Positions 9,860-61,736 of a stretch of DNA of 64,000 bases are shown in pieces. Numbering within the stretch: the first letter of the stretch is position 1; each line of letters opens with the position of its first letter. Made by a program: the position numbers and the translations under genes. The stretch spans positions 31,806,001 through 31,870,000 of the forward strand of contig OZ024740.1 in assembly GCA_964016885.1 (NCBI GenBank), given 5' to 3'. The DNA comes from Eledone cirrhosa (Eukaryota). The notes under the pieces are model-generated. The model was not told the origin of the DNA. It did not search any database and saw nothing but the letters and a program-made list of their open reading frames with translations.

Positions 9860-10255
9860 CTTCATCAATATTTCACCATCATTATCAACATTTAACGTCA
9901 ATTGTCCATGCTTGCAGCAGTTAGATAGGTTCTCACAAGTTGAGGTCAGACCAGTCAGGTGATCACACCCTGCTTGTATGCTCTGTTTTGGTTGGATACC
10001 CTTCCTAATGTCAAGCACTTTACAGCATATACTAGAGAACATTTTATCATTACTCCAGTCCTGCCACCTTGCAAAGTAGACTAGGTGTTTTTTGTCATGG
10101 CACCAGCACTACCACCTTTACAGGCTGCACTGAGTGTTTTTCATTGTGGCACCAGTACTACAACTTTACAGAGTGGACTAGGTGCTTTTCATCATGGCAC
10201 CAGCACTACCACATTACAGAGTGGACTTGGTGCATTTTATCATGGCACCTGCACT
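9860..10255 (-). mobile_element. decayed RTE-tail element with about 4 tandem units related to the 47-bp satellite
   Basis: Reverse complement of the RTE 3' end (GGACGTTAAATG/GAT-like), plus ATGGCACCAGCACTACCACATTACAGAGTG units at about 10070-10250. Confidence 0.65.
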
Positions 10256-11360
10256 ACCTCATCTAATAACAAATACTAATGATAATGTGAAACCATCTTT
10301 AAAATCAGTGGCTGATTATCTTAAATGTTGGTGCAAGATGTTCAGCAGAAAGATCACACAGCTATTATAGCTGATTGAATTTTGAGTAAATGCTTTGTTT
10401 TTATTTATATATTTTAGTCTGGGTGGGGGAACAGTATATATAAACTTTACAGGTTTTCAGCATGAAAATATCTTTGCAGTTGATATTCAATTTGAGTTTT
10501 TGAAGCAAATATGTAAGAAAAAAGAAAGTTGCAGAGGGTTATAATTTTGTGATGAAAAAAGGTTTAGACAAAGTGTTTGGTGCATAGTTTTGTGGGTAAG
10601 ACATGGTAGGAATAACAAATTGATGAGTCAGGTTGCATACAGTTCATTAGCTCAATGAACTGGGAATTGTTATTGTAACAACAATGGAGAGAACGTGAAG
10701 ATACAACACATCGGTTAAGGTTTAGCAATTAGTTGAATAATACTTTTTGGCTTTGATATACAATGTATGTGCATGCATGTGTGTGTGTATAACAGCTGTC
10801 TCATCTTAGATATATAAACAGTACTTTAGTGTCTGGAGCATTTCTCAGAATAAAGAGTTAGTAACTGTTCAGATCCAAAGTTCTTCCTGACACTGAAGAA
10901 AAGAGCTAACTTTACTTTTGAGGTACAGATTTGGCTATGTTATATATATGTTGTCACAATGGTAGTTCATCAGAAATTATGAGACTCAGCATTTATATAG
11001 TTTGTAAAGATTTGTTTGTCAATGCATAGAGAAGATACAGCATTGTGTAGAAAGATTGTTGTGAGGGAGACCCAGGTTGTCATCTCTTCATCATACAATA
11101 AAGGCTAGTGTTCAATGTCTTCACAACCCAACTACCACCAACTCTGTTTTAATATTCCATTGTTCATACTCAAAACTATCTTCTTAGATTTTCTAGAAGA
11201 TGAAAACAACATCATTCTTTTTTCCTGTTCATATTAAGCAATATATTTAATTGTTCAACAATGCTTATTAGGTTGACTGAGAATTCCTTAGTTGAAAAGA
11301 AATAACTGACTCATTACTCCATCTTGCTTGTAATATTATTTGCTATTATTATTTTTCAAG

Positions 11361-14339: not shown

Positions 14340-14662
14340 GGGCACAGGGCTTAGTGGTTAGAGCATTGGCCTTGTAATCGAAAGGTTGTGAGTTCCATTC
14401 TCAGACCAGGTGATGTTGATTCCTTGAGCAAGACGCTTTATTTCACATTGCTCCAGTTTACTCAGCTGTAGAAATGAGATGATAGGGACTGGGGTCCCTA
14501 TCATTCCACTGCAAAGTGGTCGTAGAAGTGTCACAGCAAAAAAGCACCCAGCACTCACTGTAAATGAGGTTGGTGTTAGGAAGGGCATCCAGCTGTAGAA
14601 ATCAAGCCAGAATCAGTTCCCGTCCCACCCTTGCAAGCAGGGAAAAGCAGACGTAAAATGAT
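14340..14662 (+). mobile_element. SINE family C: tRNA head, CORE-like body, RTE-derived tail
   Basis: GGCTTAGTGGTTAGAGC..GAGTTCCATTCTC head; CCTTGAGCAAG..CTCAGCTGTAGAAATGAG body; tail AGGAAGGGCATCCAGCTGTAGAAA...GACGTAAAATGAT shared with the RTE copies. Confidence 0.8.
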
Positions 14663-24100: not shown

Positions 24101-24380
24101 ATTGATAGACTGTACCTGTAATTCAAAGGCCATCCTTGTCACACTATTGATAGACTATACCTGTAATTCAAAGACCAGCCTTGTCACACTATTGATAGAC
24201 TGTACCTGTAATTCAAAAGCCATCCTTGTCACACTATTGATAGACTGTACCTGTAATTCAAAGGCCAGCCTTGTCAGACACCGTTTCATAATGAATTTCA
24301 ATTACATGTGCCTGTGAAATACTCTGCTACTTACATACCAATTTCATGAGCAAGCTGAAATCAATGGATGAAGGTCCATT
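18148..24380 (+). mobile_element. family B SINE interrupted by internal satellite expansion
   Basis: A-box-like TGGCTAAATGG (18150) and B-box-like GGTTCAATCCC (18194) before the array; SINE 3' part after 24276. Confidence 0.7.
18307..24276. repeat. 45/46-bp minisatellite array, about 131 copies
   Basis: Unit TAGACTGTACCTGTAATTCAAA(A)GGCCAGCCTTGTCACACTATTGA. Confidence 0.98.
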
Positions 24381-24689: not shown

Positions 24690-24788
24690 ATTGCTGAAGG
24701 TCTCATGTATTTGCATGGTCTCCAAATAATATACCGAGATCTTAAACCAGCCAACATACTAGTATTCAGTCTATCGACCAGATCTCTG
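24690..24788 (+). CDS. LRRK2: LRRK2-like kinase exon g (catalytic loop)
   Basis: aattcag acceptor, gtgagt donor. IAEGLMYLHGLQIIYRDLKPANILVFSLSTRSL. Confidence 0.96.
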
Positions 24789-24990
24789 GTGAGTTTATTT
24801 ATTCTTTTACTGGTTCCAGTCAGTGGGCTTTGGCCATGCTGGGACTAAATTCTTCTTTCATAATTTGTTGAAAATTGACTACCATTTAATTTTTATTGGA
24901 TAGTAATGGATTAACAGAATTGGTAAAGTGCTGGACATGTCTTGCAATATTTAATTACTTCATGTCACATTATGTGTTTAACCTTTCCAT

Positions 24991-25230
24991 TACCGGTCGC
25001 TCTCTGACAAGTTTGTGGTCGTGCCCTTGGCAGTGGAGACCTCTGGTCTCCTTGGTCCTAGGACTACTTCCCTACTCACCACCATAGCCACTGAGCTGGC
25101 CAGCCGCAGGTGTGAGCCTCGCGATATGGAATGATTCTTCCAGCGCATCTCCCTTACCATCCCCCGAGGAAACACCTTCTCTATTCTGTCCACCAGAGCT
25201 GTTGGGAGGCCAGCACGTGGGACCCCATTT
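24991..25230 (+). mobile_element. CRE-type non-LTR retrotransposon 3' fragment (C-terminal part of the restriction-like endonuclease region)
   Basis: Translates as YRSLSDKFVVVPLAVETSGLLGP...RCEPRDME*FFQRISLTIPRGNTFSIL, matching the PxAVETxG..QRxSxAxQRGN pattern; one in-frame stop. Confidence 0.72.
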
Positions 25231-25687
25231 GACAAAAATATAACTATTTCCTTTTCAAAGTTCTGACTGCAGTTTCGCTGAATCAGTTTGCAGCAATTTA
25301 TGCACTATAGAAGTGCACCATCACTCTGAACTTAATAAGGCTTATCAAGAGATCCCTCAGTTAGTGGACTGTTTCTTGATCGTTCGTAGCAAGTGAGAAA
25401 TTCTTGAGAGGTAGAGAGAGAGTTTTATAGCCAATACGGTACTCGTTTATTGTCCTCTTTTACTATCCTTCCGTGACCAGTGTATCATGTGTTAATTTCT
25501 CCCTCCGCCCCTCGAGAATTTCTCACTTGTTACAAACATGGCAAGAATCAGTCCAACTGAGGGGGTCTCTTGATAAACCTTGTTAACCTCACAGCGATGG
25601 TGCACTTCTATAGTGCGTAAATTGCTGCAAACTGATTTGGCAAAGCTGCAGTCGGATCTTTGAGGAAAAAATAAGTATATTTTTGTC
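25231..25687. mobile_element. fold-back MITE with about 180-bp inverted arms
   Basis: GACAAAAATATA...GTGAGAAATTCTTGAG mirrors CTCGAGAATTTCTCAC...TATATTTTTGTC. Confidence 0.85.
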
Positions 25688-25904
25688 TATTATTTCCTTG
25701 TATTTTTAATTTGATATATATATATATATGTTTCTCTGGAAGAAATCACTTATTTTCCAACCTGAAGAAGAATGGGCTCCACCAAGTTTAAAATACCCAT
25801 GTAATGACAGCACCCCTATAACTCTACCAGGAGTTAAGGTATAATAGAATGGTAGTTATCTTTGAATCACTGAAATCAAAGACTTATTTTCTATTTACCT
25901 TCAG

Positions 25905-26030
25905 ATTAACGTCAAAATCTCTGATTACGGCATTTCACAGTTAAGTGCTTTGTATGGTCTCACAGCAAATGAAGGAACACCTGGTTATCAAGCCCCAGAA
26001 GTTATCAGAAAGGAAAACTATTCCTTCCAA
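25905..26030 (+). CDS. LRRK2: LRRK2-like kinase exon h (DYG motif and activation loop)
   Basis: ccttcag acceptor, gtaagt donor. INVKISDYGISQLSALYGLTANEGTPGYQAPEVIRKENYSFQ; DYG in place of DFG is diagnostic of LRRKs. Confidence 0.97.
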
Positions 26031-26056
26031 GTAAGTATTTCTATAAATATGTAATT

Positions 26057-29000
26057 GGTTCCACAAGAAAACGCAATCAGCCCCCACTGTAAAGTGGTAG
26101 TTCTGGTGCCACAATAAATGTACCCAGCACTCACTGTAAAGTGGTAGTTCTGGTGCCACAATAAATGTACCTTGCACTCACTGTAATGCGGTAGTTCTGG
26201 TGCCACGATAAATGTACCCAGCACTCACTGTAAAGTGGTAGTTCTGGTGTCACAATAAATGTACCCAGCACTCACTGTAAAGTGGTAGTTCTGGTGCCAC
26301 AATAAATGTACCCAGCACTCACTGTAAAGTGGTAGTTCTGGTGCCACAATAAATGTACCCAGCACTCACTGTAAAGTGGTAGTTCTGGTTCCACAATAAA
26401 TTTACCCAGCACTCACTGTAATGTGGTAGTTCTGGTGCCACAATAAATGTACCCAGCACTCACTGTAATGTGGTAGTTCTGGTGCCACAATAAACGTACC
26501 CAGCACTCACTGTAAAGTGGTAGTTCTGTTGCCATGATAAATGTACCCAGCACTCACGGTAAAGTAGTAGTGTTGGTGCCACAATAAATGTACCCAGCAC
26601 TCACTGTAATGTGGTAGTTCTAGTGCCACAATAAATGTACCCAGCACTCACTGTAATGTGGTAGTTCTGGTGCCACAATAAATGTACCCAGCACTCACTG
26701 TAATGTGGTAGTTCTGTTGCCATGATAAATGTACCCAGCACTCACTGTAAAGTGGTAGTTCTGGTGCCACAATAAATGTACCCAGCACTCACTGTAAAGT
26801 GGTAGTTCTGGTGCCACAATAAATGTACCCAGCACTCACTGTAATGTGGTAGTTCTGGTGCCACAATAAATGTACCCAGCACTCACTGTAATGTGGTAGT
26901 TCTGGTGCCACAATAAATGTACCCAGCACTCACTGTAAAGTGGTAGTTCTGGTCCCACAGTAAATGTACCCAGCACTCACTGTAAAGTGGTAGTTCTGTT
27001 GCCACAATAAATGTACCCAGCACTCACTGTAAAGTAGTAGTGTTAGTGCCACAATAAATGTACCCAGCACTCACTGTAAAGTAGTAGTGTTAGTGCCACA
27101 ATAAATGTACCCAGCACTCACTGTAAAGTGGTAGTTCTGGTGCCACAATAAATGTACCCAGCACTCACTGTAAAGTGGTAGTTCTGGTGCCACAATAAAT
27201 GTACCCAGCACTCACTGTAAAGTGGTAGTTCTGGTGCCACAATAAATGTACCCAGCACTCACTGTAATGTGGTAGTTCTGGTCCCACAGTAAATGTACCC
27301 AGCACTCACTGTAAAGTGGTAGTGTTGGTGCCACAATAAATGTACCCAGCACTCACTGTAAAGGAGTAGTGTTGGTGCCACAATAAATGTACCCAGCACT
27401 CACTGTAAAGTGGTAGTTCTGGTGCCATGATAAATGTACCCAGCACTCACTGTAAAGTGGTAGTGTTGGTGCCACAATAAATGTACCCAGCACTCACTGT
27501 AAAGTAGTAGTGTTGGTGCCACAATAAATGTACCCAGCACTCACTGTAAAGTAGTAGTGTTGGTGCCACAATAAATGTACCCAGCACTCACTGTAATGTG
27601 GTAGTTCTGGTGCCACGATAAATGTACCCAGCACTCACTGTAAAGTGGTAGTGTTGGTGCCACAATAAATGTACCCAGCACTCACTGTAATGTGGTAGTT
27701 CTGGTGCCATGATAAATGTACCCAGCACTCACTGTAAAGTGGTAGTGTTGGTTCCACAATAAATGTACCCAGCACTCACGGTAAAGTAGTAGTGTTGGTG
27801 CCACAATAAATGTACCCAGCACTCACTGTAAAGTAGTAGTGTTGGTGCCACAATAAATGTACCCAGCACTCACTGTAATGTGGTAGTTCTGGTGCCACGA
27901 TAAATGTACCCAGCACTCACTGTAAAGTGGTAGTGTTGGTGCCACAATAAATGTACCCAGCACTCACTGTAAAGTGGTAGTGTTGGTGCCACGATAAATG
28001 TACCCAGCACTCACTGTAAAGTGGTAGTGTTGGTGCCACGATAAATGTACCCAGCACTCACTGTAAAGTGGTAGTTCTGGTGCCACAATAAATGTACCCA
28101 GCACTCACTGTAAAGTGGTAGTTCTGGTGCCACAATAAATGTACCCAGCACTCACTGTAATGTGGTAGTTCTGGTGCCACAATAAATGTACCCAGCACTC
28201 ACTGTAAAGTAGTAGTGTTGGTGCCACAATAAATGTACCCAGCACTCACTGTAATGTGGTAGTTATGGTGCCACAATAAATGTACCCAGCACTCACTGTA
28301 AAGTGGTAGTTCTGGTGCCACAATAAATGTACCCAGCACTCACTGTAAAGTGGTAGTTCTGGTGCCACAATAAATGTACCCAGCACTCACTGTAAAGTGG
28401 TAGTTCTGGTGTCACAATAAATGTACCCAGCACTCACTGTAAAGTGGTAGTTCTGTTGCCACAATAAATGTACCCAGCACTCACTGTAATGTGGTAGTTC
28501 TGGTGCCACAATAAATGTACCCAGCACTCACTGTAAAGTAGTAGTGTTGGTGCCATAATAAATGTACCCAGCACTCACGGTAAAGTAGTAGTGTTGGTGC
28601 CACGATAAATGTACCCAGCACTCACTGTAATGTGGTAGTTCTGGTGCCACGATAAATGTACCCAGCACTCACTGTAATGTGGTAGTTCTGGTGCCACAAT
28701 AAATGTACCCAGCACTCACTGTAAAGTAGTAGTGTTAGTTCCACAATAAATGTACCCAGCACTCACTGTAATGTGGTAGTTCTGGTGCCACAATAAATGT
28801 ACCCAGCACTCACTGTAAAGTGGTAGTTCTGGTGCCACAATAAATGTACCCAGCACTCACTGTAATGTGGTAGTTCTGGTGCCACAATAAATGTACCCAG
28901 CACTCACTGTAAAGTGGTAGTGTTGGTGCCACAATAAATGTACCCAGCACTCACTGTAAAGTGGTAGTGTTGGTGCCACAATAAATGTACCCAGCACTCA

Positions 29001-32000
29001 CTGTAAAGGAGTAGTGTTGGTGCCACAATAAATGTACCCAGCACTCACTGTAATGTGGTAGTTCTGGTGCCATGATAAATGTACCCAGCACTCACTGTAA
29101 AGTGGTAGTGTTGGTGCCACAATAAATGTACCCAGCACTCACTGTAAAGTAGTAGTGTTGGTGCCACAATAAATGTACCCAGCACTCACTGTAAAGTAGT
29201 AGTGTTGGTGCCACAATAAATGTACCCAGCACTCACTGTAATGTGGTAGTTCTGGTGCCACGATAAATGTACCCAGCACTCACTGTAAAGTGGTAATGTT
29301 GGTGCCACAATAAATGTACCCAGCACTCACTGTAATGTGGTAGTTCTGGTGCCATGATAAATGTACCCAGCACTCACTGTAAAGTGGTAGTGTTGGTGCC
29401 ACAATAAATGTACCCAGCACTCACGGTAAAGTAGTAGTGTTGGTGCCACAATAAATGTACCCAGCACTCACTGTAAAGTAGTAGTGTTGGTGCCACAATA
29501 AATGTACCCAGCACTCACTGTAATGTGGTAGTTCTGGTGCCACGATAAATGTACCCAGCACTCACTGTAAAGTGGTAGTGTTGGTGCCACAATAAATGTA
29601 CCCAGCACTCACTGTAAAGTGGTAGTGTTGGTGCCACAATAAATCTACCCAGCACTCACTGTAAAGTGGTAGTGTTGGTGCCACGATAAATGTACCCAGC
29701 ACTCACTGTAAAGTGGTAGTTCTGGTGCCACAATAAATGTACCCAGCACTCACTGTAAAGTGGTAGTTCTGGTGCCACAATAAATGTACCCAGCACTCAC
29801 TGTAATGTGGTAGTTCTGGTGCCACAATAAATGTACCCAGCACTCACTGTAAAGTAGTAGTGTTGGTGCCACAATAAATGTACCCAGCACTCACTGTAAT
29901 GTGGTAGTTATGGTGCCACAATAAATGTACCCAGCACTCACTGTAAAGTGGTAGTTCTGGTGCCACAATAAATGTACCCAGCACTCACTGTAAAGTGGTA
30001 GTTCTGGTGCCACAATAAATGTACCCAGCACTCACTGTAAAGTGGTAGTTCTGGTGTCACAATAAATGTACCCAGCACTCACTGTAAAGTGGTAGTTCTG
30101 TTGCCACAATAAATGTACCCAGCACTCACTGTAATGTGGTAGTTCTGGTGCCACAATAAATGTACCCAGCACTCACTGTAAAGTAGTAGTGTTGGTGCCA
30201 CAATAAATGTACCCAGCACTCACGGTAAAGTAGTAGTGTTGGTGCCACGATAAATGTACCCAGCACTCACTGTAATGTGGTAGTTCTGGTGCCACGATAA
30301 ATGTACCCAGCACTCACTGTAATGTGGTAGTTCTGGTGCCACAATAAATGTACCCAGCACTCACGGTAAAGTAGTAGTGTTGGTGCCACAATAAATGTAC
30401 CCAGCACTCACTGTAATGTGGTAGTTCTAGTGCCACAATAAATGTACCCAGCACTCACTGTAATGTGGTAGTTCTGGTGCCACAATAAATGTACCCAGCA
30501 CTCACTGTAATGTGGTAGTTCTGTTGCCATGATAAATGTACCCAGCACTCACTGTAAAGTGGTAGTTCTGGTGCCACAATAAATGTACCCAGCACTCACT
30601 GTAAAGTGGTAGTTCTGGTGCCACAATAAATGTACCCAGCACTCACTGTAATGTGGTAGTTCTGGTGCCACAATAAATGTACCCAGCACTCACTGTAATG
30701 TGGTAGTTCTGGTGCCACAATAAATGTACCCAGCACTCACTGTAAAGTGGTAGTTCTGGTCCCACAGTAAATGTACCCAGCACTCACTGTAAAGTGGTAG
30801 TTCTGTTGCCACAATAAATGTACCCAGCACTCACTGTAAAGTAGTAGTGTTAGTGCCACAATAAATGTACCCAGCACTCACTGTAAAGTAGTAGTGTTAG
30901 TGCCACAATAAATGTACCCAGCACTCACTGTAAAGTGGTAGTTCTGGTGCCACAATAAATGTACCCAGCACTCACTGTAAAGTGGTAGTTCTGGTGCCAC
31001 AATAAATGTACCCAGCACTCACTGTAAAGTGGTAGTTCTGGTGCCACAATAAATGTACCCAGCACTCACTGTAATGTGGTAGTTCTGGTCCCACAGTAAA
31101 TGTACCCAGCACTCACTGTAAAGTGGTAGTGTTGGTGCCACAATAAATGTACCCAGCACTCACTGTAAAGGAGTAGTGTTGGTGCCACAATAAATGTACC
31201 CAGCACTCACTGTAAAGTGGTAGTTCTGGTGCCATGATAAATGTACCCAGCACTCACTGTAAAGTGGTAGTGTTGGTGCCACAATAAATGTACCCAGCAC
31301 TCACTGTAAAGTAGTAGTGTTGGTGCCACAATAAATGTACCCAGCACTCACTGTAAAGTAGTAGTGTTGGTGCCACAATAAATGTACCCAGCACTCACTG
31401 TAATGTGGTAGTTCTGGTGCCACGATAAATGTACCCAGCACTCACTGTAAAGTGGTAGTGTTGGTGCCACAATAAATGTACCCAGCACTCACTGTAATGT
31501 GGTAGTTCTGGTGCCATGATAAATGTACCCAGCACTCACTGTAAAGTGGTAGTGTTGGTTCCACAATAAATGTACCCAGCACTCACGGTAAAGTAGTAGT
31601 GTTGGTGCCACAATAAATGTACCCAGCACTCACTGTAAAGTAGTAGTGTTGGTGCCACAATAAATGTACCCAGCACTCACTGTAATGTGGTAGTTCTGGT
31701 GCCACGATAAATGTACCCAGCACTCACTGTAAAGTGGTAGTGTTGGTGCCACAATAAATGTACCCAGCACTCACTGTAAAGTGGTAGTGTTGGTGCCACG
31801 ATAAATGTACCCAGCACTCACTGTAAAGTGGTAGTGTTGGTGCCACGATAAATGTACCCAGCACTCACTGTAAAGTGGTAGTTCTGGTGCCACAATAAAT
31901 GTACCCAGCACTCACTGTAAAGTGGTAGTTCTGGTGCCACAATAAATGTACCCAGCACTCACTGTAATGTGGTAGTTCTGGTGCCACAATAAATGTACCC

Positions 32001-35000
32001 AGCACTCACTGTAAAGTAGTAGTGTTGGTGCCACAATAAATGTACCCAGCACTCACTGTAATGTGGTAGTTATGGTGCCACAATAAATGTACCTAGCACT
32101 CACTGTAAAGTGGTAGTTCTGGTGCCACAATAAATGTACCCAGCACTCACTGTAAAGTGGTAGTTCTGGTGCCACAATAAATGTACCCAGCACTCACTGT
32201 AAAGTGGTAGTTCTGGTGTCACAATAAATGTACCCAGCACTCACTGTAAAGTGGTAGTTCTGTTGCCACAATAAATGTACCCAGCACTCACTGTAATGTG
32301 GTAGTTCTGGTGCCACAATAAATGTACCCAGCACTCACTGTAAAGTAGTAGTGTTGGTGCCACAATAAATGTACCCAGCACTCACGGTAAAGTAGTAGTG
32401 TTGGTTCCACGATAAATGTACCCAGCACTCACTGTAATGTGGTAGTTCTGGTGCCACGATAAATGTACCCAGCACTCACTGTAATGTGGTAGTTCTGGTG
32501 CCACAATAAATGTACCCAGCACTCACTGTAAAGTAGTAGTGTTAGTTCCACAATAAATGTACCCAGCACTCACTGTAATGTGGTAGTTCTGGTGCCACAA
32601 TAAATGTACCCAGCACTCACTGTAAAGTGGTAGTTCTGGTGCCACAATAAATGTACCCAGCACTCACTGTAATGTGGTAGTTCTGGTGCCACAATAAATG
32701 TACCCAGCACTCACTGTAAAGTGGTAGTGTTGGTGCCACAATAAATGTACCCAGCACTCACTGTAAAGTGGTAGTGTTGGTGCCACAATAAATGTACCCA
32801 GCACTCACTGTAAAGGAGTAGTGTTGGTGCCACAATAAATGTACCCAGCACTCACTGTAATGTGGTAGTTCTGGTGCCATGATAAATGTACCCAGCACTC
32901 ACTGTAAAGTGGTAGTGTTGGTGCCACAATAAATGTACCCAGCACTCACTGTAAAGTAGTAGTGTTGGTGCCACAATAAATGTACCCAGCACTCACTGTA
33001 AAGTAGTAGTGTTGGTGCCACAATAAATGTACCCAGCACTCACTGTAATGTGGTAGTTCTGGTGCCACGATAAATGTACCCAGCACTCACTGTAAAGTGG
33101 TAATGTTGGTGCCACAATAAATGTACCCAGCACTCACTGTAATGTGGTAGTTCTGGTGCCATGATAAATGTACCCAGCACTCACTGTAAAGTGGTAGTGT
33201 TGGTGCCACAATAAATGTACCCAGCACTCACGGTAAAGTAGTAGTGTTGGTGCCACAATAAATGTACCCAGCACTCACTGTAAAGTAGTAGTGTTGGTGC
33301 CACAATAAATGTACCCAGCACTCACTGTAATGTGGTAGTTCTGGTGCCACGATAAATGTACCCAGCACTCACTGTAAAGTGGTAGTGTTGGTGCCACAAT
33401 AAATGTACCCAGCACTCACTGTAAAGTGGTAGTGTTGGTGCCACAATAAATCTACCCAGCACTCACTGTAAAGTGGTAGTGTTGGTGCCACGATAAATGT
33501 ACCCAGCACTCACTGTAAAGTGGTAGTTCTGGTGCCACAATAAATGTACCCAGCACTCACTGTAAAGTGGTAGTTCTGGTGCCACAATAAATGTACCCAG
33601 CACTCACTGTAATGTGGTAGTTCTGGTGCCACAATAAATGTACCCAGCACTCACTGTAAAGTAGTAGTGTTGGTGCCACAATAAATGTACCCAGCACTCA
33701 CTGTAATGTGGTAGTTATGGTGCCACAATAAATGTACCCAGCACTCACTGTAAAGTGGTAGTTCTGGTGCCACAATAAATGTACCCAGCACTCACTGTAA
33801 AGTGGTAGTTCTGGTGCCACAATAAATGTACCCAGCACTCACTGTAAAGTGGTAGTTCTGGTGTCACAATAAATGTACCCAGCACTCACTGTAAAGTGGT
33901 AGTTCTGTTGCCACAATAAATGTACCCAGCACTCACTGTAATGTGGTAGTTCTGGTGCCACAATAAATGTACCCAGCACTCACTGTAAAGTAGTAGTGTT
34001 GGTGCCACAATAAATGTACCCAGCACTCACGGTAAAGTAGTAGTGTTGGTGCCACGATAAATGTACCCAGCACTCACTGTAATGTGGTAGTTCTGGTGCC
34101 ACGATAAATGTACCCAGCACTCACTGTAATGTGGTAGTTCTGGTGCCACAATAAATGTACCCAGCACTCACTGTAAAGTAGTAGTGTTAGTGCCACAATA
34201 AATGTACCCAGCACTCACTGTAATGTGGTAGTTCTGGTGCCACAATAAATGTACCCAGCACTCACTGTAAAGTGGTAGTTCTGGTGCCACAATAAATGTA
34301 CCCAGCACTCACTGTAATGTGGTAGTTCTGGTGCCACAATAAATGTACCCAGCACTCACTGTAAAGTGGTAGTGTTGGTGCCACAATAAATGTACCCAGC
34401 ACTCACTGTAAAGTGGTAGTGTTGGTGCCACAATAAATGTACCCAGCACTCACTGTAAAGTGGTAGTTCTGGTTCCACAATAAATGTACCTTGCACTCAC
34501 TGTAATGTGGTAGTTCTGGTGCCACAATAAATGTACCCAGCACTCACTGTAATGTGGTAGTTCTGGTGCCACAATAAATGTACCCAGCACTCACTGTAAT
34601 GTGGTAGTTCTGGTGCCACAATAAATGTATCCAGCACTCACTGTAAAGTAGTAGTGTTGGTGCCACAATAAATGTACCCAGCACTCACTGTAATGTGGTA
34701 GTTCTGGTGCCACAATAAATGTACCCAGCACTTACTGTAAAGTAGTAGTGTTAGTGCCACAATAAATGTACCCAGCACTCACTGTAAAGTGGTAGTTCTG
34801 CTGCCACAATAAATGTACCCAGCACTCACTGTAAAGTGGTAGTGTTGGTGCCACAATAAATGTACCCAGCACTCACTGTAATGTGGTAGTTCTGTTGCCA
34901 CAATAAATGTACCCAGCACTCACTGTAAAGTGGTTGTTCTGGTACCACAATAAATGTACCCAGCACTCACTGTAATGTGGTAGTTCTGGTGCCACAATAA

Positions 35001-38000
35001 ATGTACCCAGCACTCACTGTAAAGTGGTAGTTCTGGTTCCACAATAAATGTACCCAGCACTCACTGTAATGTGGTAGTTCTGGTGCCACAATAAATGTAC
35101 CCAGCACTCACTGTAATGTGGTAGTTCTGGTGCCACAATAAATGTACCCAGCACTCACTGTAAAGTGGTAGTTCTGGTGCCACAATAAATGTACCCAGCA
35201 CTCACTGTAAAGTGGTAGTTCTGGTGCCACAATAAATGTACCCAGCACTCACTGTAAAGTGGTAGTTCTGGTGCCACAATAAATGTACCCAGCACTCACT
35301 GTAAAGTGGTAGTTCTGGTGCCATGATAAATGTACCCAGCACTCACTGTAATGTAGTAGTTCTGGTGCCACAGTAAATGTACCCAGCACTCACTGTAAAG
35401 TGGTAGTTCTGGTGCCACAATAAATGTACCCAGCACTCACTGTAAAGTGGTAGTTCTGGTGCCACAATAAATGTACCCAGCACTCACTGTAAAGTGGTAG
35501 TTCTGGTGTCACAATAAATGTACCCAGCACTCACTGTAAAGTGGTAGTTCTGTTGCCACAATAAATGTACCCAGCACTCACTGTAATGTGGTAGTTCTGG
35601 TGCCACAATAAATGTACCCAGCACTCACTGTAAAGTAGTAGTGTTGGTGCCACAATAAATGTACCCAGCACTCATGGTAAAGTAGTAGTGTTGGTGCCAC
35701 GATAAATGTACCCAGCACTCACTGTAATGTGGTAGTTCTGGTGCCACGATAAATGTACCCAGCACTCACTGTAATGTGGTAGTTCTGGTGCCACAATAAA
35801 TGTACCCAGCACTCACTGTAAAGTAGTAGTGTTAGTGCCACAATAAATGTACCCAGCACTCACTGTAATGTGGTAGTGTTGGTGCCACAATAAATGTACC
35901 CAGCACTCACTGTAAAGTGGTAGTTCTGTTTCCACAATAAATGTACCTTCAACTCACTGTAATGTGGTAGTTCTGGTGCCACAATAAATGTACCCAGCAC
36001 TCACTGTAATGTGGTAGTTCTGTTGCCATGATAAATGTACCCAGCACTCACTGTAAAGTGGTAGTTCTGGTGCCACAATAAATGTACCCAGCACTCACTG
36101 TAAAGTGGTAGTTCTGGTGCCACAATAAATGTACCCAGCACTCACTGTAAAGTGGTAGTGTTGGTGCCACAATAAATGTACCCAGCACTCACTGTAAAGT
36201 GGTAGTTCTGGTGCCACAATAAATGTACCCAGCACTCACTGTAATGTGGTAGTTCTGGTGCCACAATAAATGTACCCAGCACTCACTGTAAAGTAGTAGT
36301 GTTGGTGCCACAATAAATGTACCCAGCACTCACTGTAATGTGGTAGTTCTGGTGCCACAATAAATGTACCCAGCACTCACTGTAAAGTGGTAGTTCTGGT
36401 GCCACAATAAATGTACCCAGCACTCACTGTAATGTGGTAGTTCTGGTGCCACAATAAATGTACCCAGCACTCACTGTAATGTGGTAGTTCTGGTGCCACA
36501 ATAAATGTACCCAGCACTCACTGTAAAGTAGTAGTGTTGATCCCACAATAAATGTACCCAGCACTCACTGTAATGTGGTAGTTCTGGTGCCACAATAAAT
36601 GTACCCAGCACTCACTGTAAAGTGGTAGTTCTGGTGCCACAATAAATGTACCCAGCACTCACTGTAAAGTGATAGTTCTGGTGCCACAATAAATGTACCC
36701 AGCACTCACTGTAATGTGGTAGTTCTGGTGCCACAATAAATGTACCCAGCACTCACTGTAAAGTGGTAGTTCTGGTGCCACAATAAATGTACCCAGCACT
36801 CACTGTAATGTGGTAGTGTTGGTGCCACAATAAATGTACCCAGCACTCACTGTAAAGTGGTAGTTCTGGTGCCACAATAAATGTAGCCAGCACTCACTGT
36901 AAAGTGGTAGTTCTGGTGCCACAATAAATGTACCCAGCACTCACTGTAAAGTGGTAGTTCTGGTGCCACAATAAATGTACCCAGCACTCACTGTAATGTG
37001 GTAGTTCTGTTGCCATGATAAATGTACCCAGCACTCACTGTAATGTGGTAGTTCTGGTGCCACAATAAATGTACCCAGCACTCACTGTAATGTGGTAGTT
37101 CTGGTGCCACAATAAATGTACCCAGCACTCACTGTAATGTGGTAGTTCTGGTGCCACAATAAATGTATCCAGCACTCACTGTAAAGTAGTAGTGTTGGTG
37201 CCACAATAAATGTACCCAGCACTCACTGTAATGTGGTAGTTCTGGTGCCACAATAAATGTACCCAGCACTTACTGTAAAGTAGTAGTGTTAGTGCCACAA
37301 TAAATGTACCCAGCACTCACTGTAAAGTGGTAGTTCTGCTGCCACAATAAATGTACCCAGCACTCACTGTAAAGTGGTAGTGTTGGTGCCACAATAAATG
37401 TACCCAGCACTCACTGTAATGTGGTAGTTCTGTTGCCACAATAAATGTACCCAGCACTCACTGTAAAGTGGTAGTTCTGGTACCACAATAAATGTACCCA
37501 GCACTCACTGTAATGTGGTAGTTCTGGTGCCACAATAAATGTACCCAGCACTCACTGTAAAGTGGTAGTTCTGGTTCCACAATAAATGTACCCAGCACTC
37601 ACTGTAATGTGGTAGTTCTGGTGCCACAATAAATGTACCCAGCACTCACTGTAATGTGGTAGTTCTGGTGCCACAATAAATGTACCCAGCACTCACTGTA
37701 AAGTGGTAGTTCTGGTGCCACAATAAATGTACCCAGCACTCACTGTAAAGTGGTAGTTCTGGTGCCACAATAAATGTACCCAGCACTCACTGTAAAGTGG
37801 TAGTTCTGGTGCCACAATAAATGTACCCAGCACTCACTGTAAAGTGGTAGTTCTGGTGCCATGATAAATGTACCCAGCACTCACTGTAATGTAGTAGTTC
37901 TGGTGCCACAGTAAATGTACCCAGCACTCACTGTAAAGTGGTAGTTCTGGTGCCACAATAAATGTACCCAGCACTCACTGTAAAGTGGTAGTTCTGGTGC

Positions 38001-40600
38001 CACAATAAATGTACCCAGCACTCACTGTAAAGTGGTAGTTCTGGTGTCACAATAAATGTACCCAGCACTCACTGTAAAGTGGTAGTTCTGTTGCCACAAT
38101 AAATGTACCCAGCACTCACTGTAATGTGGTAGTTCTGGTGCCACAATAAATGTACCCAGCACTCACTGTAAAGTAGTAGTGTTGGTGCCACAATAAATGT
38201 ACCCAGCACTCATGGTAAAGTAGTAGTGTTGGTGCCACGATAAATGTACCCAGCACTCACTGTAATGTGGTAGTTCTGGTGCCACGATAAATGTACCCAG
38301 CACTCACTGTAATGTGGTAGTTCTGGTGCCACAATAAATGTACCCAGCACTCACTGTAAAGTAGTAGTGTTAGTGCCACAATAAATGTACCCAGCACTCA
38401 CTGTAATGTGGTAGTGTTGGTGCCACAATAAATGTACCCAGCACTCACTGTAAAGTGGTAGTTCTGTTTCCACAATAAATGTACCTTCAACTCACTGTAA
38501 TGTGGTAGTTCTGGTGCCACAATAAATGTACCCAGCACTCACTGTAATGTGGTAGTTCTGTTGCCATGATAAATGTACCCAGCACTCACTGTAAAGTGGT
38601 AGTTCTGGTGCCACAATAAATGTACCCAGCACTCACTGTAAAGTGGTAGTTCTGGTGCCACAATAAATGTACCCAGCACTCACTGTAAAGTGGTAGTGTT
38701 GGTGCCACAATAAATGTACCCAGCACTCACTGTAAAGTGGTAGTTCTGGTGCCACAATAAATGTACCCAGCACTCACTGTAATGTGGTAGTTCTGGTGCC
38801 ACAATAAATGTACCCAGCACTCACTGTAAAGTAGTAGTGTTGGTGCCACAATAAATGTACCCAGCACTCACTGTAATGTGGTAGTTCTGGTGCCACAATA
38901 AATGTACCCAGCACTCACTGTAAAGTGGTAGTTCTGGTGCCACAATAAATGTACCCAGCACTCACTGTAATGTGGTAGTTCTGGTGCCACAATAAATGTA
39001 CCCAGCACTCACTGTAATGTGGTAGTTCTGGTGCCACAATAAATGTACCCAGCACTCACTGTAAAGTAGTAGTGTTGATCCCACAATAAATGTACCCAGC
39101 ACTCACTGTAATGTGGTAGTTCTGGTGCCACAATAAATGTACCCAGCACTCACTGTAAAGTGGTAGTTCTGGTGCCACAATAAATGTACCCAGCACTCAC
39201 TGTAAAGTGGTAGTTCTGGTGCCACAATAAATGTACCCAGCACTCACTGTAAAGTGGTAGTTCTGGTGCCACAATAAATGTACCCAGCACTCACTGTAAA
39301 GTGGTAGTGTTGGTGCCACAATAAATGTACCCAGCACTCACTGTAAAGTGGTAGTTCTGGTGCCACAATAAATGTACCCAGCACTCACTGTAATGTGGTA
39401 GTTCTGGTGCCACAATAAATGTACCCAGCACTCACTGTAAAGTGGTAGTTCTGGTGCCACAATAAATGTACCCAGCACTCACTGTAATGTGGTAGTGTTG
39501 GTGCCACAATAAATGTACCCAGCACTCACTGTAAAGTGGTAGTTCTGGTGCCACAATAAATGTAGCCAGCACTCACTGTAAAGTGGTAGTTCTGGTGCCA
39601 CAATAAATGTACCCAGCACTCACTGTAAAGTGGTAGTTCTGGTGCCACAATAAATGTACCCAGCACTCACTGTAATGTGGTAGTTCTGTTGCCATGATAA
39701 ATGTACCCAGCACTCACTGTAATGTGGTAGTTCTGGTGCCACAATAAATGTACCCAGCACTCACTGTAATGTGGTAGTTCTGGTGCCACAATAAATGTAC
39801 CCAGCACTCACTGTAATGTGGTAGTGTTGGTGCCACAATAAATGTACCCAGCACTCACTGTAAAGTGGTAGTTCTGGTGCCACAATAAATGTACCCAGCA
39901 CTCACTGTAAAGTGGTAGTTCTGGTGCCACAATAAATGTACCCAGCACTCACTGTAATGTGGTAGTTCTGTTGCCATGATAAATGTACCCAGCACTCACT
40001 GTAATGTGGTAGTTCTGGTGCCACAATAAATGTACCCAGCACTCACTGTAATGTGGTAGTTCTGTTGCCAAGATAAACGTACCCAGCACTCACTGTAATG
40101 TGGTAGTTCTGTTGCCAAGATAAATGTACCCAGCACTCACTGTAATGTGGTAGTTCTGGTGCCACAATAAATGTACCCAGCACTCACTGTAATGTGGTAG
40201 TTCTGTTGCCAAGATAAATGTACCCAGCACTCACTGTAATGTGGTAGTTCTGTTGCCACAATAAATGTACCCAGCACTCACTGTAATGTGGTAGTTCTGG
40301 TGCCACAATAAATGTACCCAGCACTCACTGTAATGTGGTAGTTCTGTTGCCAAGATAAATGTACCCAGCACTCACTGTAATGTGGTAGTTCTGTTGCCAA
40401 GATAAATGTACCCAGCACTCACTGTAATGTGGTAGTTCTGTTGCCAAGATAAATGTACCCAGCACTCACTGTAATGTGGTAGTTCTGTTGCCAAGATAAA
40501 TGTACCCAGCACTCACTGTAATGTGGTAGTTCTGTTGCCAAGATAAATGTACCCATCACTCACTGTAAAGTGGTAGTTCTGGTGCCATGATAAATGTACC
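26057..40600. repeat. 47-bp minisatellite array, about 309 copies, with higher-order duplications
   Basis: Unit GGTGCCACAATAAATGTACCCAGCACTCACTGTAA(A/T)GTGGTAGTTCT. Confidence 0.99.
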
Positions 40601-41275: not shown

Positions 41276-41383
41276 GTGGACATATTTTCCTATGGAATTT
41301 TGTTATACTTCCTTCTCTCTGGTGGAAAACATCCATATGGCTACCTCCGTCATCCATCTGAAATGGAAGAAGCAATTATCTCT
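41276..41383 (+). CDS. LRRK2: LRRK2-like kinase exon i (alphaF)
   Basis: tttcag acceptor, gtaagt donor. VDIFSYGILLYFLLSGGKHPYGYLRHPSEMEEAIIS. Confidence 0.95.
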
Positions 41384-45700: not shown

Positions 45701-46232
45701 AATAGTAACATACGTGAATGGCAAAGCATAAGCGAACTAAGGAAAAAATTAGAAATAAGAGGGATCAGATGTTGTTTACTCGAGAGAAGGCTACGTTGGT
45801 ATGGTCACGTGATGTGCATAAAAGACGACAGCTGTATAACAAAGTGCAGAGCAATAAAGATAGACGGTAGCTACGGAGTAGGCAGACCCAGAAAAACCTG
45901 GGACGAGCTGATAAATTCCGACCTCATGCACTTACACCTCTCAGCCCCACACTGTAAATGTGGTTGGTGTTAGGAAGGGCATCCAGCTGTAGAAAACCCG
46001 CCAGACAGTCCACGCTGTAATGTGGCCGTGTAGGCAACACGGTAAAAACCTCCCAGCCCCACACTGTAAATGTGGTTGGTGTTAGGAAGGGCATCCAGCT
46101 GTAGAAAACCCGCCAGACAGTCCTATGCGAGCAAGACAATCACTCTTGCCTCAAGTGGGAAAACCCCCATCCAAACCCATGCAAGCGTGGAACACGGACG
46201 TTAAACGATGATAATGATGATGATGATGATGA
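42780..46232 (+). mobile_element. near full-length RTE-clade LINE (APE, RT, PHD-like finger), frameshifted
   Basis: APE motifs (VGTINVGTL, CIQETRW, GDLNGHVG, QVDYIL, SQHRLL) and RT motifs (FVDLEKAFD, GVHQGSVLSPLLF, LYADD). Frameshifts at about 44145 and 45440; 3' UTR with an internal direct repeat; (GAT)n tail. Confidence 0.95.
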
Positions 46233-46559: not shown

Positions 46560-47580
<1,021 letters not shown>

Positions 47581-48044: not shown

Positions 48045-48297
48045 CGCCCTTCTTAACACCAACCTCATTTACAGTGAGTGCTGGGTGCTTTTTTGCCATG
48101 GCACCTCCACGACCACTTTGCAGTGGAATGATAGGGACCCCAGTCCCTATCATCTCATTTCTACAGCTGAGTAAACTGGAGCAATGTGAAATAAAGTGTC
48201 TTGCTCAAGGAAACAACACATCACCTGGTCTGAGAATTGAACTCACAACCTTTCGATTGCAAGGCCAATGCTCTAACCACTAAGCCATGTGCCTCCA
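48045..48297 (-). mobile_element. family C SINE, 3'-truncated
   Basis: Near-identical to the copy at 46650-46894. Confidence 0.8.
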
Positions 48298-52639: not shown

Positions 52640-54700
52640 ATATCATCATCATCATCATCATCATCATCACCGTTTTACGTCCGTTCTTCCACGCTAGCAT
52701 GGGTTAGACGGGTTGTCCTGTTGTGGGCAGTGTCTGGTCGGCTGACCATGCCTTGCTCATACAGGAACTGATCTGGCTTGATTTCTACAGCTGGATGCCC
52801 TTCCTAACACCAACCTCATTTACAGTGAGTGCTGGGTGCTTTTTCGTGGCGCCTACACGTCCACTTTACAGTGTGGGCTGGGTGCTTTTTTGCCGTGGCA
52901 CCTCCACGGCCACCTTGCGGTGGGGGGGGGGGGGGGGGGGCATATTGTTTATATGCTTCAGCATGTACCCATGGGAGGTCGGGTACCCTGTATTACTGCG
53001 TGACGCCAGAAGTCACGGTCGTGTGTCATTGACTTTGAGAGGTGTAGTTGGGTAAGGTCGGCTTTTATCACCTCATCCCAAGTCATCTTGGGTCTCCCCA
53101 CTCCGCGGTTTCCATCAACTTCTAGTGCTCTGCACCTTTTTATGCAGCTGTCATCCTTCATACGCATCACATGTCCATACCAGCATAACCGCCTCTCCTG
53201 CACGCAGCATTTGATTCCTCTTATGCTCAGTCTCTCTCTCAATTCCTTTATGCTTTGTCGTTCACGTATATTACTGTTACACATCCATCGGAGCATGCAG
53301 GCTTCGTTTCTCTCTAATCTACGTAAGTCTTCCACCTTCAGCGCCCAGGTCTCACTACCATGCAACATCGCTGTTCGGATACACGCATCATACAGTCTGC
53401 CTTTCATTCTGAGGGAGAAGCCTTTTGCAGCTAGCAGTGGTAGTAGTTCCCTAAACTTCTTCCATCCCGTTCTTACCCTAGTTATTGTACTTTCTGAGCA
53501 CCCACCTCCGTTGCTAATTCGGTCACCTAGGTAGCAGAAGCTGTCTACTGTTTCTACAGGGCCCTCCCAGAGATTGGTGGTACTTGTTTCCTGTGGCTGT
53601 TTGCTTGCTGTTTCAGCACAGCTGCTGCATGTGAATCCTACATTCTTAATTAAGCTTCCTGAGATCCCGCTACATCTCTTGTGTACCCATTGTTTGCATT
53701 TGGGGCAGAGAATGGAGTTCCTACCTACACCTTTCCTACATACTGAGCAAGGCCATTTCCCTGAGGGGATCTGGGTTCTGTTTTCTCATCTACTTACAAG
53801 GACCTTAGTCTTTGTCATGTTGACTTTGAGGCCCTTTCTCTCTAGTCCCTGCTTCCAGGTTTGGAATTTATTCTCTAGTTCTACCATAGATTCAGCTATG
53901 AGTGCGAGGTCATCAGCATACAGGTGTTCCCATGGGCATCCGGTCTTAAACTCCTCCATTATTGCCTGCAGGACTATGATGAACAGGAGAGGGCTAAGAA
54001 CAGAGCCCTGGTGGACCCCAACCTGTACGCTAAATTCCTCGCTATACTCATTGCCAATCCTAACTTTGCTGACTGCTCCCCTATACATGGCTTGTACCGC
54101 TTTCACAAGCCATTCATCTACTCCTAGTTTTCTAAGAGCCCACCAGATTACTGCACGTGGAACTCTGTCAAAGGCTTTCTCAAGGTCGACAAATGCCAAG
54201 TAGAGTGGCTTACTTTTAGCTAGGTACTTTTCCTGTAATTGCCTCACAAGGAAGAGGGCATCAGTGGTGCCTTTCCCTGGTACAAACCCAAATTGCATCT
54301 CGTCTATATTCACCCGGTCCCTAATCAGCTGTGCTATAACTCTTTCTGTTACTTTCATGACCTGGTCCATCAACTTTATACCTCTATAGTTTCCTCTATC
54401 TAGTGCATCGCCTTTACCTTTGTAGCAGTTGACAATGATGCTACTGCACCAATCTTTTGGTATGGCCCCCTCTAGTATTACCTGGTTAACGATACGTGTG
54501 GTTATAGTGTGACCTACAGACCCAGATGCCTTCAGCATCTCGGCAGCTATACCCGATGGACCGGTTGCCTTCCCTATCTTCATATCTCTGATTGCCTTAC
54601 TTACTACGCTGCCGCTGACTTGTACTGCTGGTCCCTCTATAGGGTCTACGTGGGGTAGGGTCTCTTCTTCCCATGCATTCTCCTCATTTAGTAATCTATC
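52640..54700 (-). mobile_element. 5'-truncated RTE-clade LINE
   Basis: Minus ORFs 53786-54583 and 52958-53407 are homologous to the RT and C-terminus of the + strand RTE; 3' UTR and (GAT)n tail. Confidence 0.95.
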
Positions 54701-54707
54701 ATATATA

Positions 54708-54780
<73 letters not shown>

Positions 54781-56027
54781 TTATATATGTATATATATAT
54801 AATTATTGGGGTGGGGTTTGTTCTGTAACTCAGTGGTTCAACAAATAGAGATCAACAGAGTAAGTATGAGACTTGAAAGAAAATAATGAGGTTGATATGA
54901 TTGGTTAAATGAAGGCAATGCCCTAGCATGGTCGCAGTCTTATGACTGGAACTAGCAAAAGAATAAAAGAAAATACATAGATAATATATTTCTGTATAAA
55001 TTGTTGAATTGGCAGAGATGTTAGGCTATCAGAAAATAAATGCCTAGTGGTATTTGTTTTAAGTCTGTAACAAGCAATGGCACTATTTTATCACTGCAGA
55101 GTAATTTGGTCATACTTTGTCACTCGCCACCCCTTAGGGTTGGAGGCGTATGAACACAAAAGACGACTTCTGCCCAGCAGTTGCTTCGCGCTTTTTTTCA
55201 GTTTTAGCTAGTAGTTGCGCCTAGCCTTTCGTCGACACCAGCAACTCAAAAATGGCTATTCCAGTCGAGACACCATCTTTCGAAACTACCTGGCAGTTAC
55301 GTAACTTTCTACTGAGCAGTGCTATGTAACTCACTTCCTTATTTTCTTGCTCTTGCCTTGAGAATTACATTTATCGTTCAACTTGATTATGCGATATATT
55401 TTGAGCTCTTCACTCACCTTGTATTTGTATTAATATGAAGAAGAAAATAAACCTTTATTATGTTTTGAAATGTGCCCTCTGATCTTTTCCTCAACCATGA
55501 AACACACAACCTTACCTCTATATCTTCTTTAAGGATATAAAATCTTTGCTACCCAAAATAGAATTACAGCAAATGTTTACGCTAAAAGTCTCTGTGCTCT
55601 GCATTTAAACCCCATCAAGGTCAACTTTACCTTTCATCCCTTCTGAGTTGATAAATAAGGTAACAGTCCCACCTACTGTGATTGGAAGACCAGTAACCCT
55701 TCTGCCAGGAGTTGAGTTCAGTAGATGGTATCAGCAATGGAAAGACCAGTGAAAACATAGTTTCCTTGGTTTAATCTGTTAAATTGACTTTTTTTCCTCT
55801 GTGTGTGAGTGTGTATGGCTTTAAACAACTGAGAGTACAATACTTCCCCCTGGTACTCATTTTCAACTGAGTGTAGTGAAGCAATATGAAAGGAAGTGTT
55901 TTGCTCAAGAACACACACACACACACACACACACGCACGCACATATACATGATGATGATGATGATGATGAGAATAATGCTGATGATAAATGTACAAACTT
56001 TTCGGTGTGTGTTTTTTTTTTTATTAG

Positions 56028-60944: not shown

Positions 60945-61736
60945 TATGCTTCAGCTTCGGCTTGTATCCGTGGGAAGTCGGATCTTCTGTGTTACTGCAT
61001 GAAGCCAGAGGTCGTGATCATCTGTCATCGACTTTGAGAGGTGCAATTGGGTAGATTAGAAAGAAACGAAGCCTGCATGTTCCGATGGATGTGTAATAGT
61101 AATATACGCGAACAGCAAAGCATAAACAAACTGAGAGAGAGACTGAGCATAAGAGGAATCAAATGCTGTGTGCAGGAGAGGAGGTTGTGTTGGTATGGAC
61201 ATGTGATGCATATGAAGGATGACAGCTGCATAAAAAGGTGCAGAGCACTAGAAGTCAATGGAAACCACGGAGTGGGGAGACCCAAGAAGACCTGGGATGA
61301 GGTGATAAAAGCCGACCTTACTCAATTGCACCTCTCAAGGGCGATGACACACAACCGTGACTTCTGGAATCACGCAGAAATACAGAATACCTGACACCCC
61401 CACCCACCCCACCCACCCACGGGTACAAGCCGAAGCTGAAACGTAGAGACAATATGCCCCCCCCACTGCAAAGTGGTTGTGGAGGTGCCACGGCAAAAAA
61501 GCACCCAGCCCACACTGTAAAGTGGACGTGTAGGCGCCACAGAAAAAAAGCACCCAGCACTCACTGTAAATAAGGTTGGTGTTAGGAAGAGCATCCAGCT
61601 GTAGAAATCAAGCCAGAATCAGTTCCCATATGAGCAAGACAAGGTCAGCCAACCGGACACTGCCCACAACAGGACAATCCGTCTAACCCATGCTAGCTTG
61701 GAAGAATGGACGTAAAATGGTAATGATGATGATGAT
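60945..61736 (+). mobile_element. RTE 3' fragment preceded by an inverted RTE fragment
   Basis: ORF 61041-61394 is the RTE C-terminus, followed by the 3' UTR and (GAT)n. 60945-61052 is an antisense copy of about 61320-61440. Confidence 0.88.

What the first reader, a model, noticed from the sequence alone, without database searches (positions are those of the whole stretch)
26057..40600. 14.5-kb array in which most units resemble a complete sense-strand polyadenylation signal, starting right after the DYG exon
Seen: the array begins 27 nt after the exon h donor. The consensus unit has AATAAA (first at 26113; a minority of units have GATAAA or AGTAAA). It also has two TGTA motifs, CA dinucleotides about 7-15 nt after the hexamer and a GU-rich stretch (GTGGTAGTTCTGGTG) about 25-40 nt after it. 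Reading into the intron gives VSISINM-stop. Established: UGUA, AAUAAA and a downstream GU-rich element define the metazoan cleavage/polyadenylation signal. Inference: hundreds of tandem sites could act as a copy-number-tunable attenuator producing LRRK without the kinase C-lobe and WD40. Otherwise the locus must suppress them strongly, for example by U1 telescripting or heterochromatin-coupled read-through.
Basis: partly seen in the sequence, partly recalled or inferred. Interest (0 to 1): 0.75.

Follow-up and report, generated by a model that had tools for sequence, protein, structure and literature searches.

The report
Retroposon-derived minisatellite in LRRK2 intron
A 47-base repeat, likely grown from a piece of a common jumping gene and copied 309 times, fills an intron of an octopus-type LRRK2-like kinase gene with 249 stop-signal look-alikes, yet a likely RNA-derived contig joins the exons across it, so it is likely a tolerated passenger, with only a weak hint that long repeats of this kind are costly when they point along a gene.

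Summary
Observation confirmed: 47 bp x 309, 249 AATAAA, first at 26113, two TGTA and a GU-rich tract per unit; read-through gives VSISINM-stop. Interpretation only partly supported. The unit is homologous to a 48-49-bp piece in the 3' UTR of an endonuclease/RT LINE and its partner SINE, and seeds arrays on many chromosomes; 18 of 19 other arrays examined also carry AATAAA (query-biased). One 7,685-nt contig of run X4 (likely RNA) joins exons g-h and continues into exon i; its length fits the intact 469-codon remainder. The same gene holds three other arrays without AATAAA, one about 181 kb. Short sense-strand family arrays sit in NBAS, RMC1, TRAP1, SLC25A26-like and other introns. No evidence of a truncated isoform or tunable device. 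The scan noted giant intronic minisatellites elsewhere in this genome before; none with this poly(A) angle turned up.

The parts
24690..24788 (+). LRRK2-like exon g (catalytic loop, YRDLKPAN)
   Evidence: open joined frame; Pkinase E 1.2e-7; joined to exon h over GT..AG in X4
25905..26030 (+). exon h (DYG to APE); donor CAA|GTAAGT, 8 of 9 matches to the U1 consensus
   Evidence: (70% to Haliotis LRRK2-like P0044)
26031..26054 (+). read-through codons VSISINM and TAA; would end the kinase after the APE motif
26057..26112 (+). degenerate first unit, closer to the retroposon form (A-run instead of AATAAAT)
26078..40600 (+). 47-bp minisatellite, 309 copies, 249 AATAAA; 4.0% mean divergence from its consensus
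28604..34149 (+). higher-order duplication: 37 identical units repeated 81 units (3,807 bp) later
34949..39178 (+). higher-order duplication: 36 identical units repeated 54 units (2,538 bp) later
41276..41383 (+). exon i (VDIFSYG, subdomain IX); its first letters follow exon h in the X4 contig
14340..14660 (+). SINE-like copy (tRNA-like head, body, one unit homologous to the array unit, tail shared with the LINE)
61455..61720 (+). 3' UTR of a 5'-truncated LINE with two to three tandem 48-49-bp units homologous to the array unit, then the shared tail and (ATG)n
52660..54802 (-). LINE fragment (RVT_1, PHD) whose 3' UTR carries the same tandem units
10042..10258 (-). old 4.5-copy array of the same family, antisense, no AATAAA, followed by the retroposon tail

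Best explanation
The 14.5-kb block is a young 47-bp minisatellite, homologous to a short internal repeat of a LINE 3' UTR and its partner SINE, that likely expanded in place inside the h-i intron of an intact LRRK2-like gene, and a likely RNA-derived contig splices across it, so its 249 poly(A)-signal look-alikes are likely read through. Steps: (1) shown: the unit aligns with the retroposon's 48-49-bp internal repeat, and arrays of the family lie on many chromosomes, often still followed by the retroposon tail; (2) shown: AATAAA is the common state of the family's array lineage, interconverting with CACGATAAA and CATGATAAA as CpG decay would predict (the decay route is inferred); (3) shown: recent block duplications of 54 and 81 units; unequal exchange or slippage is inferred; (4) shown for one run: exon h is joined to exon i; (5) inferred: suppression comes from general machinery (U1 bound at a strong donor and travelling with Pol II, co-transcriptional splicing) acting on weak sites (U-poor downstream element, next hexamer only 47 nt on, cleavage zone predicted partly paired). 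If half of the transcripts get through, the mean leak per site must be under 0.3% (arithmetic).
For: Alignment of array, LINE 3' UTR, SINE and three other arrays shares 28 invariant columns. Family search: 1,187 candidates, 39 scored, arrays on C1, C2, C3, C4, C5, C6, C9, C11, C14, C18, C23, C28; further loci. 18 of 19 arrays outside the window carry AATAAA, three of them over 100; 7 of 21 arrays have the retroposon tail by a strict pattern. States at the hexamer: CACAATAAA 248, CACGATAAA 27, CATGATAAA 19, CAAGATAAA 8, other 7; the first A is among the variable positions (53 of 308), so it is not held. X4: one 7,685-nt contig, depth 28, joint 24787-25904 GT..AG, loose end behind 26032 = exon i letters. 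Exon i to stop = 1,410 nt, 469 open codons over 11 exons; the contig has 1,390 nt from exon i on. The gene has other arrays without AATAAA: 45 bp x 132, 54 bp x 28, and 51 bp over about 181 kb. Sense-strand AATAAA arrays between exons of NBAS (13 sites, from 139 nt after a donor), RMC1 (9), TRAP1-like (34), SLC25A26-like (14), CDC7-like (5). Overall orientation 11 sense: 8 antisense, p 0.65.
Against: The unit passes a loose poly(A)-site test far more often than other intronic AATAAA (247 of 249 against 2 of 28) and the hexamer is predicted unpaired (0.95). Among other arrays with an assigned host, those with 20 or more AATAAA are antisense in 6 of 7, and all 3 with over 100 are antisense (TRPA1-like 136, SGLT 130, CDC14-like 160); Fisher p 0.006 on 19 loci, 0.029 on the 13 with exons on both sides, rank test p 0.04 and 0.07 (threshold post hoc, 19 of 57 loci assigned). 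X4 is one run, not on record as RNA, kept as contigs that drop rare forms, and from another sample code than the DNA runs, so it may not carry the 309-unit allele; k-mer depth in X1 suggests 40-59 copies where the assembly has 91. Folding z-scores were unremarkable in 6 of 7 pieces, so structural masking is weak support.
Confidence: 0.68

Rival explanations
1. Unselected leaky attenuator: the units are weak but real poly(A) sites, losses add up with copy number, long sense arrays are usually purged, and LRRK2 tolerates a partial loss of full-length mRNA.
For: Size-dependent antisense skew of other arrays; unit passes the loose site test; most of the array lies many kb from the donor; antisense bias of intronic elements with processing signals is known for ERVs (PMC1794541, abstract read); TE-derived intronic poly(A) sites exist and are used less than conserved ones (PMC2553571, section 9 read).
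Against: Skew rests on 7 long arrays and a post hoc threshold and falls to p 0.10-0.22 on the both-sided set once LRRK2 is added; TRAP1-like carries 34 sense sites; the X4 contig is unbroken at the exon h end.
Confidence: 0.22
2. Adapted, copy-number-tunable switch that makes a kinase-dead LRRK2 lacking the C-lobe and WD40.
For: Position right after the DYG/APE exon; early in-frame stop before the first AATAAA; all signals on the sense strand.
Against: Unit is a family-wide retroposon fragment; array is young and still duplicating; hexamer not conserved within the array; NBAS has the same donor-proximal layout; named LRRK2-like isoforms of Acanthaster, Pecten and Haliotis asinina are 2,587-2,748 aa, and the two short snail models end after exon f in run-on sequence, not at exon h; a kinase cut after APE would likely not fold (own knowledge).
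Confidence: 0.04
3. The 309-copy length is partly an assembly or single-allele feature; most alleles are shorter, so the puzzle is smaller than it looks.
For: Long identical blocks at lags 54 and 81; X1 depth ratio 40-59 against 91 expected copies.
Against: Blocks are interleaved with 56 unit variants and no indels, as in real VNTRs; even 40-59 copies of one variant means a multi-kb array; library bias may explain the gap.
Confidence: 0.06

Closest known systems
SINE-derived satellites (sSats) of squamates (Vassetzky et al. 2023, PMC10702118; abstract and discussion read)
   Same: Tandem units taken from an internal part of a retroposon, many independent loci, a few to hundreds of units, often with the rest of the element left at one end, longer arrays more uniform.
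   Different: Here the source is shared by a LINE 3' UTR and its SINE in an octopod; arrays lie in introns of active genes; the LRRK2 array has lost the terminal tail; unit carries AATAAA.
TE-derived intronic poly(A) sites (Lee, Ji, Tian 2008, PMC2553571; abstract and section 9 read)
   Same: Retroposon sequence supplying hexamer and downstream elements inside an intron, species-specific.
   Different: Those are single sites with EST support; here 249 tandem look-alikes with no observed use.
U1 suppression of cryptic poly(A) signals (passage in PMC12216098; the primary papers were not held)
   Same: Strong donor directly upstream; full-length mRNA made despite intronic AAUAAA.
   Different: Not tested in octopods; array extends 14.5 kb with one site per 47 nt.
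Satellite-filled gigantic introns of Drosophila Y genes (PMC11207136, passages read) and intronic heterochromatin read-through by IBM2 in rice (PMC7145194, abstract read)
   Same: Genes expressed across long repeat-filled introns.
   Different: No dedicated programme or chromatin state is shown here; IBM2 is a plant factor.
Antisense bias of intronic ERVs/LTRs (PMC1794541, abstract read)
   Same: Orientation skew as a footprint of selection against processing signals.
   Different: Here no overall skew (11:8), only a hint among long arrays.

Membership tests
Retroposon-derived minisatellite | Head-to-tail units of 10-100 bp | tested here: met
   47 bp x 309
Retroposon-derived minisatellite | Unit homologous to an internal part of a SINE/LINE | tested here: met
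   LINE carries Exo_endo_phos, RVT_1, PHD
Retroposon-derived minisatellite | Independent loci across the genome | tested here: met
Retroposon-derived minisatellite | Remnant of the element at an array end | tested here: inconclusive
   absent at this array (only a degenerate first unit); present in 7 of 21 arrays by pattern
VNTR | Length varies between alleles | tested here: inconclusive
   depth ratio below assembly count; no second allele read
Functional intronic poly(A) site | AAUAAA hexamer, upstream UGUA, CA, downstream GU/U element | tested here: met
   247 of 249 by loose post hoc criteria; U-poor
Functional intronic poly(A) site | Transcripts ending in poly(A) 10-30 nt after the hexamer | tested here: inconclusive
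   contigs only; none seen among 6 of 31 loose ends shown; contigs cannot show absence
Functional intronic poly(A) site | Dominant termination (loss of downstream exons) | tested here: not met
   exon h joined to exon i in one unbroken contig; one run only
Functional intronic poly(A) site | Activity in a reporter; release on U1 block | not testable with these tools
   bench test
MetaSINE/MESC or CORE SINE superfamily (for the parent element) | 66-bp Meta domain or CORE domain after a tRNA head | not testable with these tools
   consensus is in a figure; text and 2 of 3 supplements gave no sequence; resemblance is recalled only; ARAGORN calls no tRNA in the window
RTE-clade LINE (for the parent element) | Single ORF with APE and RT, placement by RT tree | not tested
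   domains met; clade name recalled, no tree built
LRRK2-like ROCO kinase (host) | COR, kinase and WD40 exons collinear with LRRK2-like proteins, open frame | tested here: met
   ARM/ANK/LRR/ROC exons not located
Known structured RNA or ribozyme | Rfam match | tested here: not met
   only two chance hits, E 3-4.5; none in the LINE 3' UTR

The most novel reading that the evidence does not exclude
This repeat family is a natural dose series of poly(A) signals: short sense arrays are harmless, long ones are purged from the sense strand, and LRRK2 is an escapee that either loses a copy-number-dependent share of its mRNA or is read through 249 signals by an anti-termination mechanism that also carries Pol II over 100-kb octopod repeat introns.
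Probability: 0.15. Interest if true: 0.62.

Novelty: new member of a known kind. Interest (0 to 1): 0.3.

Why it matters
As a passenger it adds an octopod case of retroposon-derived minisatellites and shows how much AAUAAA an intron can hold. If the orientation skew holds genome-wide, the family gives a ready test of how cryptic poly(A) signals add up and how far suppression reaches from a donor, with alleles of different length as built-in controls. A regulated kinase-dead LRRK2 would matter more, but nothing here supports it.

Tried and rejected
No RNA holder listed by the run search; X4 is treated as likely RNA only because it joins exons over GT..AG. X4 has no cover at 26033-26059 and only the spliced contig is 99% or more alike on 25880-26170; contigs drop rare forms, so this is not counted as evidence. 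No poly(A) loose end among 6 of 31 shown. Homolog search with exon f found nothing (only 99-2000 aa searched). Whole-protein search did not find the 5' exons. Structural masking: z-scores between -1 and +0.8 in 6 of 7 folds, -2.8 in one; cleavage zone unpaired 0.31 against 0.45 in other intronic sites, weak. Ribozyme or Rfam RNA: none. Strong cryptic donors inside units: best 6 of 9. Short homologs P0018/P0020 as conserved truncations: rejected, draft run-ons after exon f. DDAH family search gave no match, so that host is one-sided and named from recall. Orientation test: 57 loci examined (10, 40, 7); 19 counted, 13 with exons on both sides and 6 with one side; 38 dropped for lack of a clear host or of AATAAA, among them the long arrays at C28:35.3M, C28:95.1M, C3:14.27M, C1:280.2M, C10:33.96M, C21:7.78M. 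Literature: no paper with octopus+SINE+minisatellite+intron; none relevant for VNTR with intronic polyadenylation, LRRK2 intronic polyadenylation (listing only) or satellite introns with poly(A) arrays (listing only). Kaida 2010, Berg 2012 and Oh 2017 were not held and are recalled only.
Full report
Setting. The window is G000:C1:31,806,001-31,870,000 of a 3.0-Gb genome. That it is an octopod rests on recalled repeat types and on earlier scan notes, not on a test. Twelve exons (a-l) on the + strand join into one open frame that is collinear with LRRK2-like proteins of Pecten and Haliotis. Seven more exons beyond the window lead to a stop near window position 88,440; from exon i to the stop there are 1,410 nt and 469 open codons. 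The gene is intact downstream of the array.

Observation. Confirmed in all particulars. TRF gives 26078-40600, 47 bp, 309 copies, no indels; 249 AATAAA, 54 GATAAA, 6 AGTAAA; a degenerate first unit starts near 26057. By a loose test (TGTA within 60 nt upstream, CA after the hexamer, a 15-nt window of 80% or more G+U) 247 of 249 sites pass, against 2 of 28 other intronic AATAAA and 0.13% of 20,000 shuffled units. The test was set after seeing the unit, and the copies are one event. Outside arrays the introns hold 28 sense and 28 antisense AATAAA in 28 kb, so intronic hexamers are routine in this gene.

Origin. The unit aligns with a 48-49-bp piece present once in SINE-like copies (14340-14660, 46560-46900, 48030-48300) and two to three times in tandem in the 3' UTR of LINE fragments (61455-61570, 52805-52920) that encode endonuclease, RT and PHD domains. 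Searches of the genome with array units returned 1,187, 576 and 1,613 candidates, about 40 scored each, on most chromosomes. Of 19 arrays outside the window that I read, 18 carry AATAAA at the same place, three more than 100 times; 7 of 21 arrays are followed by the retroposon tail by a strict pattern. The queries contained AATAAA, so 18 of 19 overstates the family share; arrays with GATAAA or AACAAA also exist. Within this array the states CACAATAAA (248), CACGATAAA (27) and CATGATAAA (19) are what decay of one CpG on either strand would give (route inferred). Mean divergence is 4.0%, with runs of 37 and 36 identical units at lags of 81 and 54 units: a young, still growing array. This matches the SINE-derived satellites of squamates (PMC10702118, discussion read).

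RNA. Run X4 (kind not on record, 88 million letters of contigs) has a 7,685-nt contig of depth 28 that covers exon g, skips 1,116 nt over GT..AG, covers exon h and continues with the first letters of exon i. It has 1,390 nt from exon i onward, 20 short of the predicted stop, and 6,067 nt before exon g, which implies that it also crosses the 51-bp array of about 181 kb upstream (inferred from length). The contig is not broken at the exon h end; from how such assemblers work I infer that a read-through form is not dominant in that sample, but rare forms are dropped. Related family units are abundant in X4 at 85-95% identity. Limits: one run, one study, another sample code than the DNA runs, no raw reads; X1 depth suggests 40-59 copies of k-mers that the assembly holds 91 times, so alleles may differ.

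Orientation test. If the unit were an efficient poly(A) site, sense-strand copies should be missing from introns. I fetched flanks of 57 family loci, predicted exons with splice matrices trained on this gene and checked them with Pfam. Nineteen could be counted. Sense: NBAS 13 AATAAA (last intron, starting 139 nt after the donor), RMC1 9, TRAP1-like 34, SLC25A26-like 14, CDC7-like 5, ASPH 1, an unnamed C8 gene 1; with exons on one side only ERK-like 10, Vav-like 5, PDE8 1, HINT-like 1. Antisense: TRPA1-like 136, SGLT 130, CDC14-like 160, PI3K-C2 30, NOSIP-like 23, ABCC 1; one side only RRP5-like 4, DDAH-like 22. Overall 11:8 (p 0.65): no general ban on sense copies. But arrays with 20 or more sites are antisense in 6 of 7 and short ones sense in 10 of 12 (Fisher p 0.006; 0.029 on the 13 both-sided loci; rank test 0.04 and 0.07; with LRRK2 added 0.019 and 0.10). 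The threshold was chosen after seeing the data and the loci are best hits, not a random sample.

Mechanism. Most likely (0.68) a passenger: a retroposon fragment seeded the intron, expanded, and is spliced out; general suppression of cryptic sites by U1 (passage in PMC12216098) at a donor with 8 of 9 matches, co-transcriptional splicing and weak site context keep the leak per site small (under 0.3% if half the transcripts pass). These last steps are inferred. Rival (0.22): an unselected leak that adds up. The adapted tunable switch (0.04) has no support: the hexamer is among the variable positions of the unit, the layout recurs in NBAS, and no homolog ends at exon h.

Novelty. A new member of a known kind (retroposon-derived intronic minisatellite). 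Earlier notes of this scan describe giant spliced-out minisatellite introns in other genes of this genome (unchecked leads that agree with what I found in this gene). Searches found no report of this family or of tandem poly(A)-signal arrays in octopod introns; the library lacks most subscription journals, and one MetaSINE supplement could not be read, which bears on naming the parent SINE. Interest 0.3.

Noticed in passing
window 1-7627 and upstream to G000:C1:31,632,371 (L061-L070, L208-L210): The 51-bp array is about 181 kb long (107 kb continuous, rest sampled) and lies between a COR-like exon candidate at C1:31,630,746-808 and exon a; that candidate does not join exon a in frame, so a short exon between them was not found.
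   Followed up: partly
window 18307-24276 and 58248-59741: Two more unrelated intronic arrays (45 bp x 132; 54 bp x 28, 99% identical, with long stop-free frames as a by-product of the period).
   Followed up: no
window 42931-46230 (+), 52660-54802 (-), 60950-61720 (+): LINE copies with APE, RT and PHD whose 3' UTR and tail are shared with a tRNA-headed SINE; the 45,940-46,130 copy has a duplicated 3' UTR piece.
   Followed up: partly
window 48380-51900 (+): A second, broken LINE of another type (endonuclease and RT frames with stops and shifts).
   Followed up: no
L119:9790-L120:415 (C11:31.80 Mb): 13 sense AATAAA units in the 1.6-kb last intron of NBAS, the closest parallel to the LRRK2 layout and a better place to look for real use.
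   Followed up: partly
L034, L035, L081 (C28:35.34-35.365 Mb); L133-L134 (C1:57.69 Mb); L037 (C1:260.84 Mb): Family arrays as long as or longer than this one (over 20 kb with AATAAA; about 250 units without; a GATAAA array over 8 kb); hosts not found.
   Followed up: partly
19 loci: Short family arrays lean sense (10 of 12); unexplained.
   Followed up: no
window 25000-25240: Fragment of a high-copy element with a restriction-endonuclease-like LINE end (recalled), very deep in the DNA runs.
   Followed up: no
L059-L060 (window +137,954 onward): A 36-bp array over 26 kb downstream of the gene.
   Followed up: no
window 25858: 8-bp deletion allele in run X3, 47 nt upstream of the exon h acceptor.
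   Followed up: no
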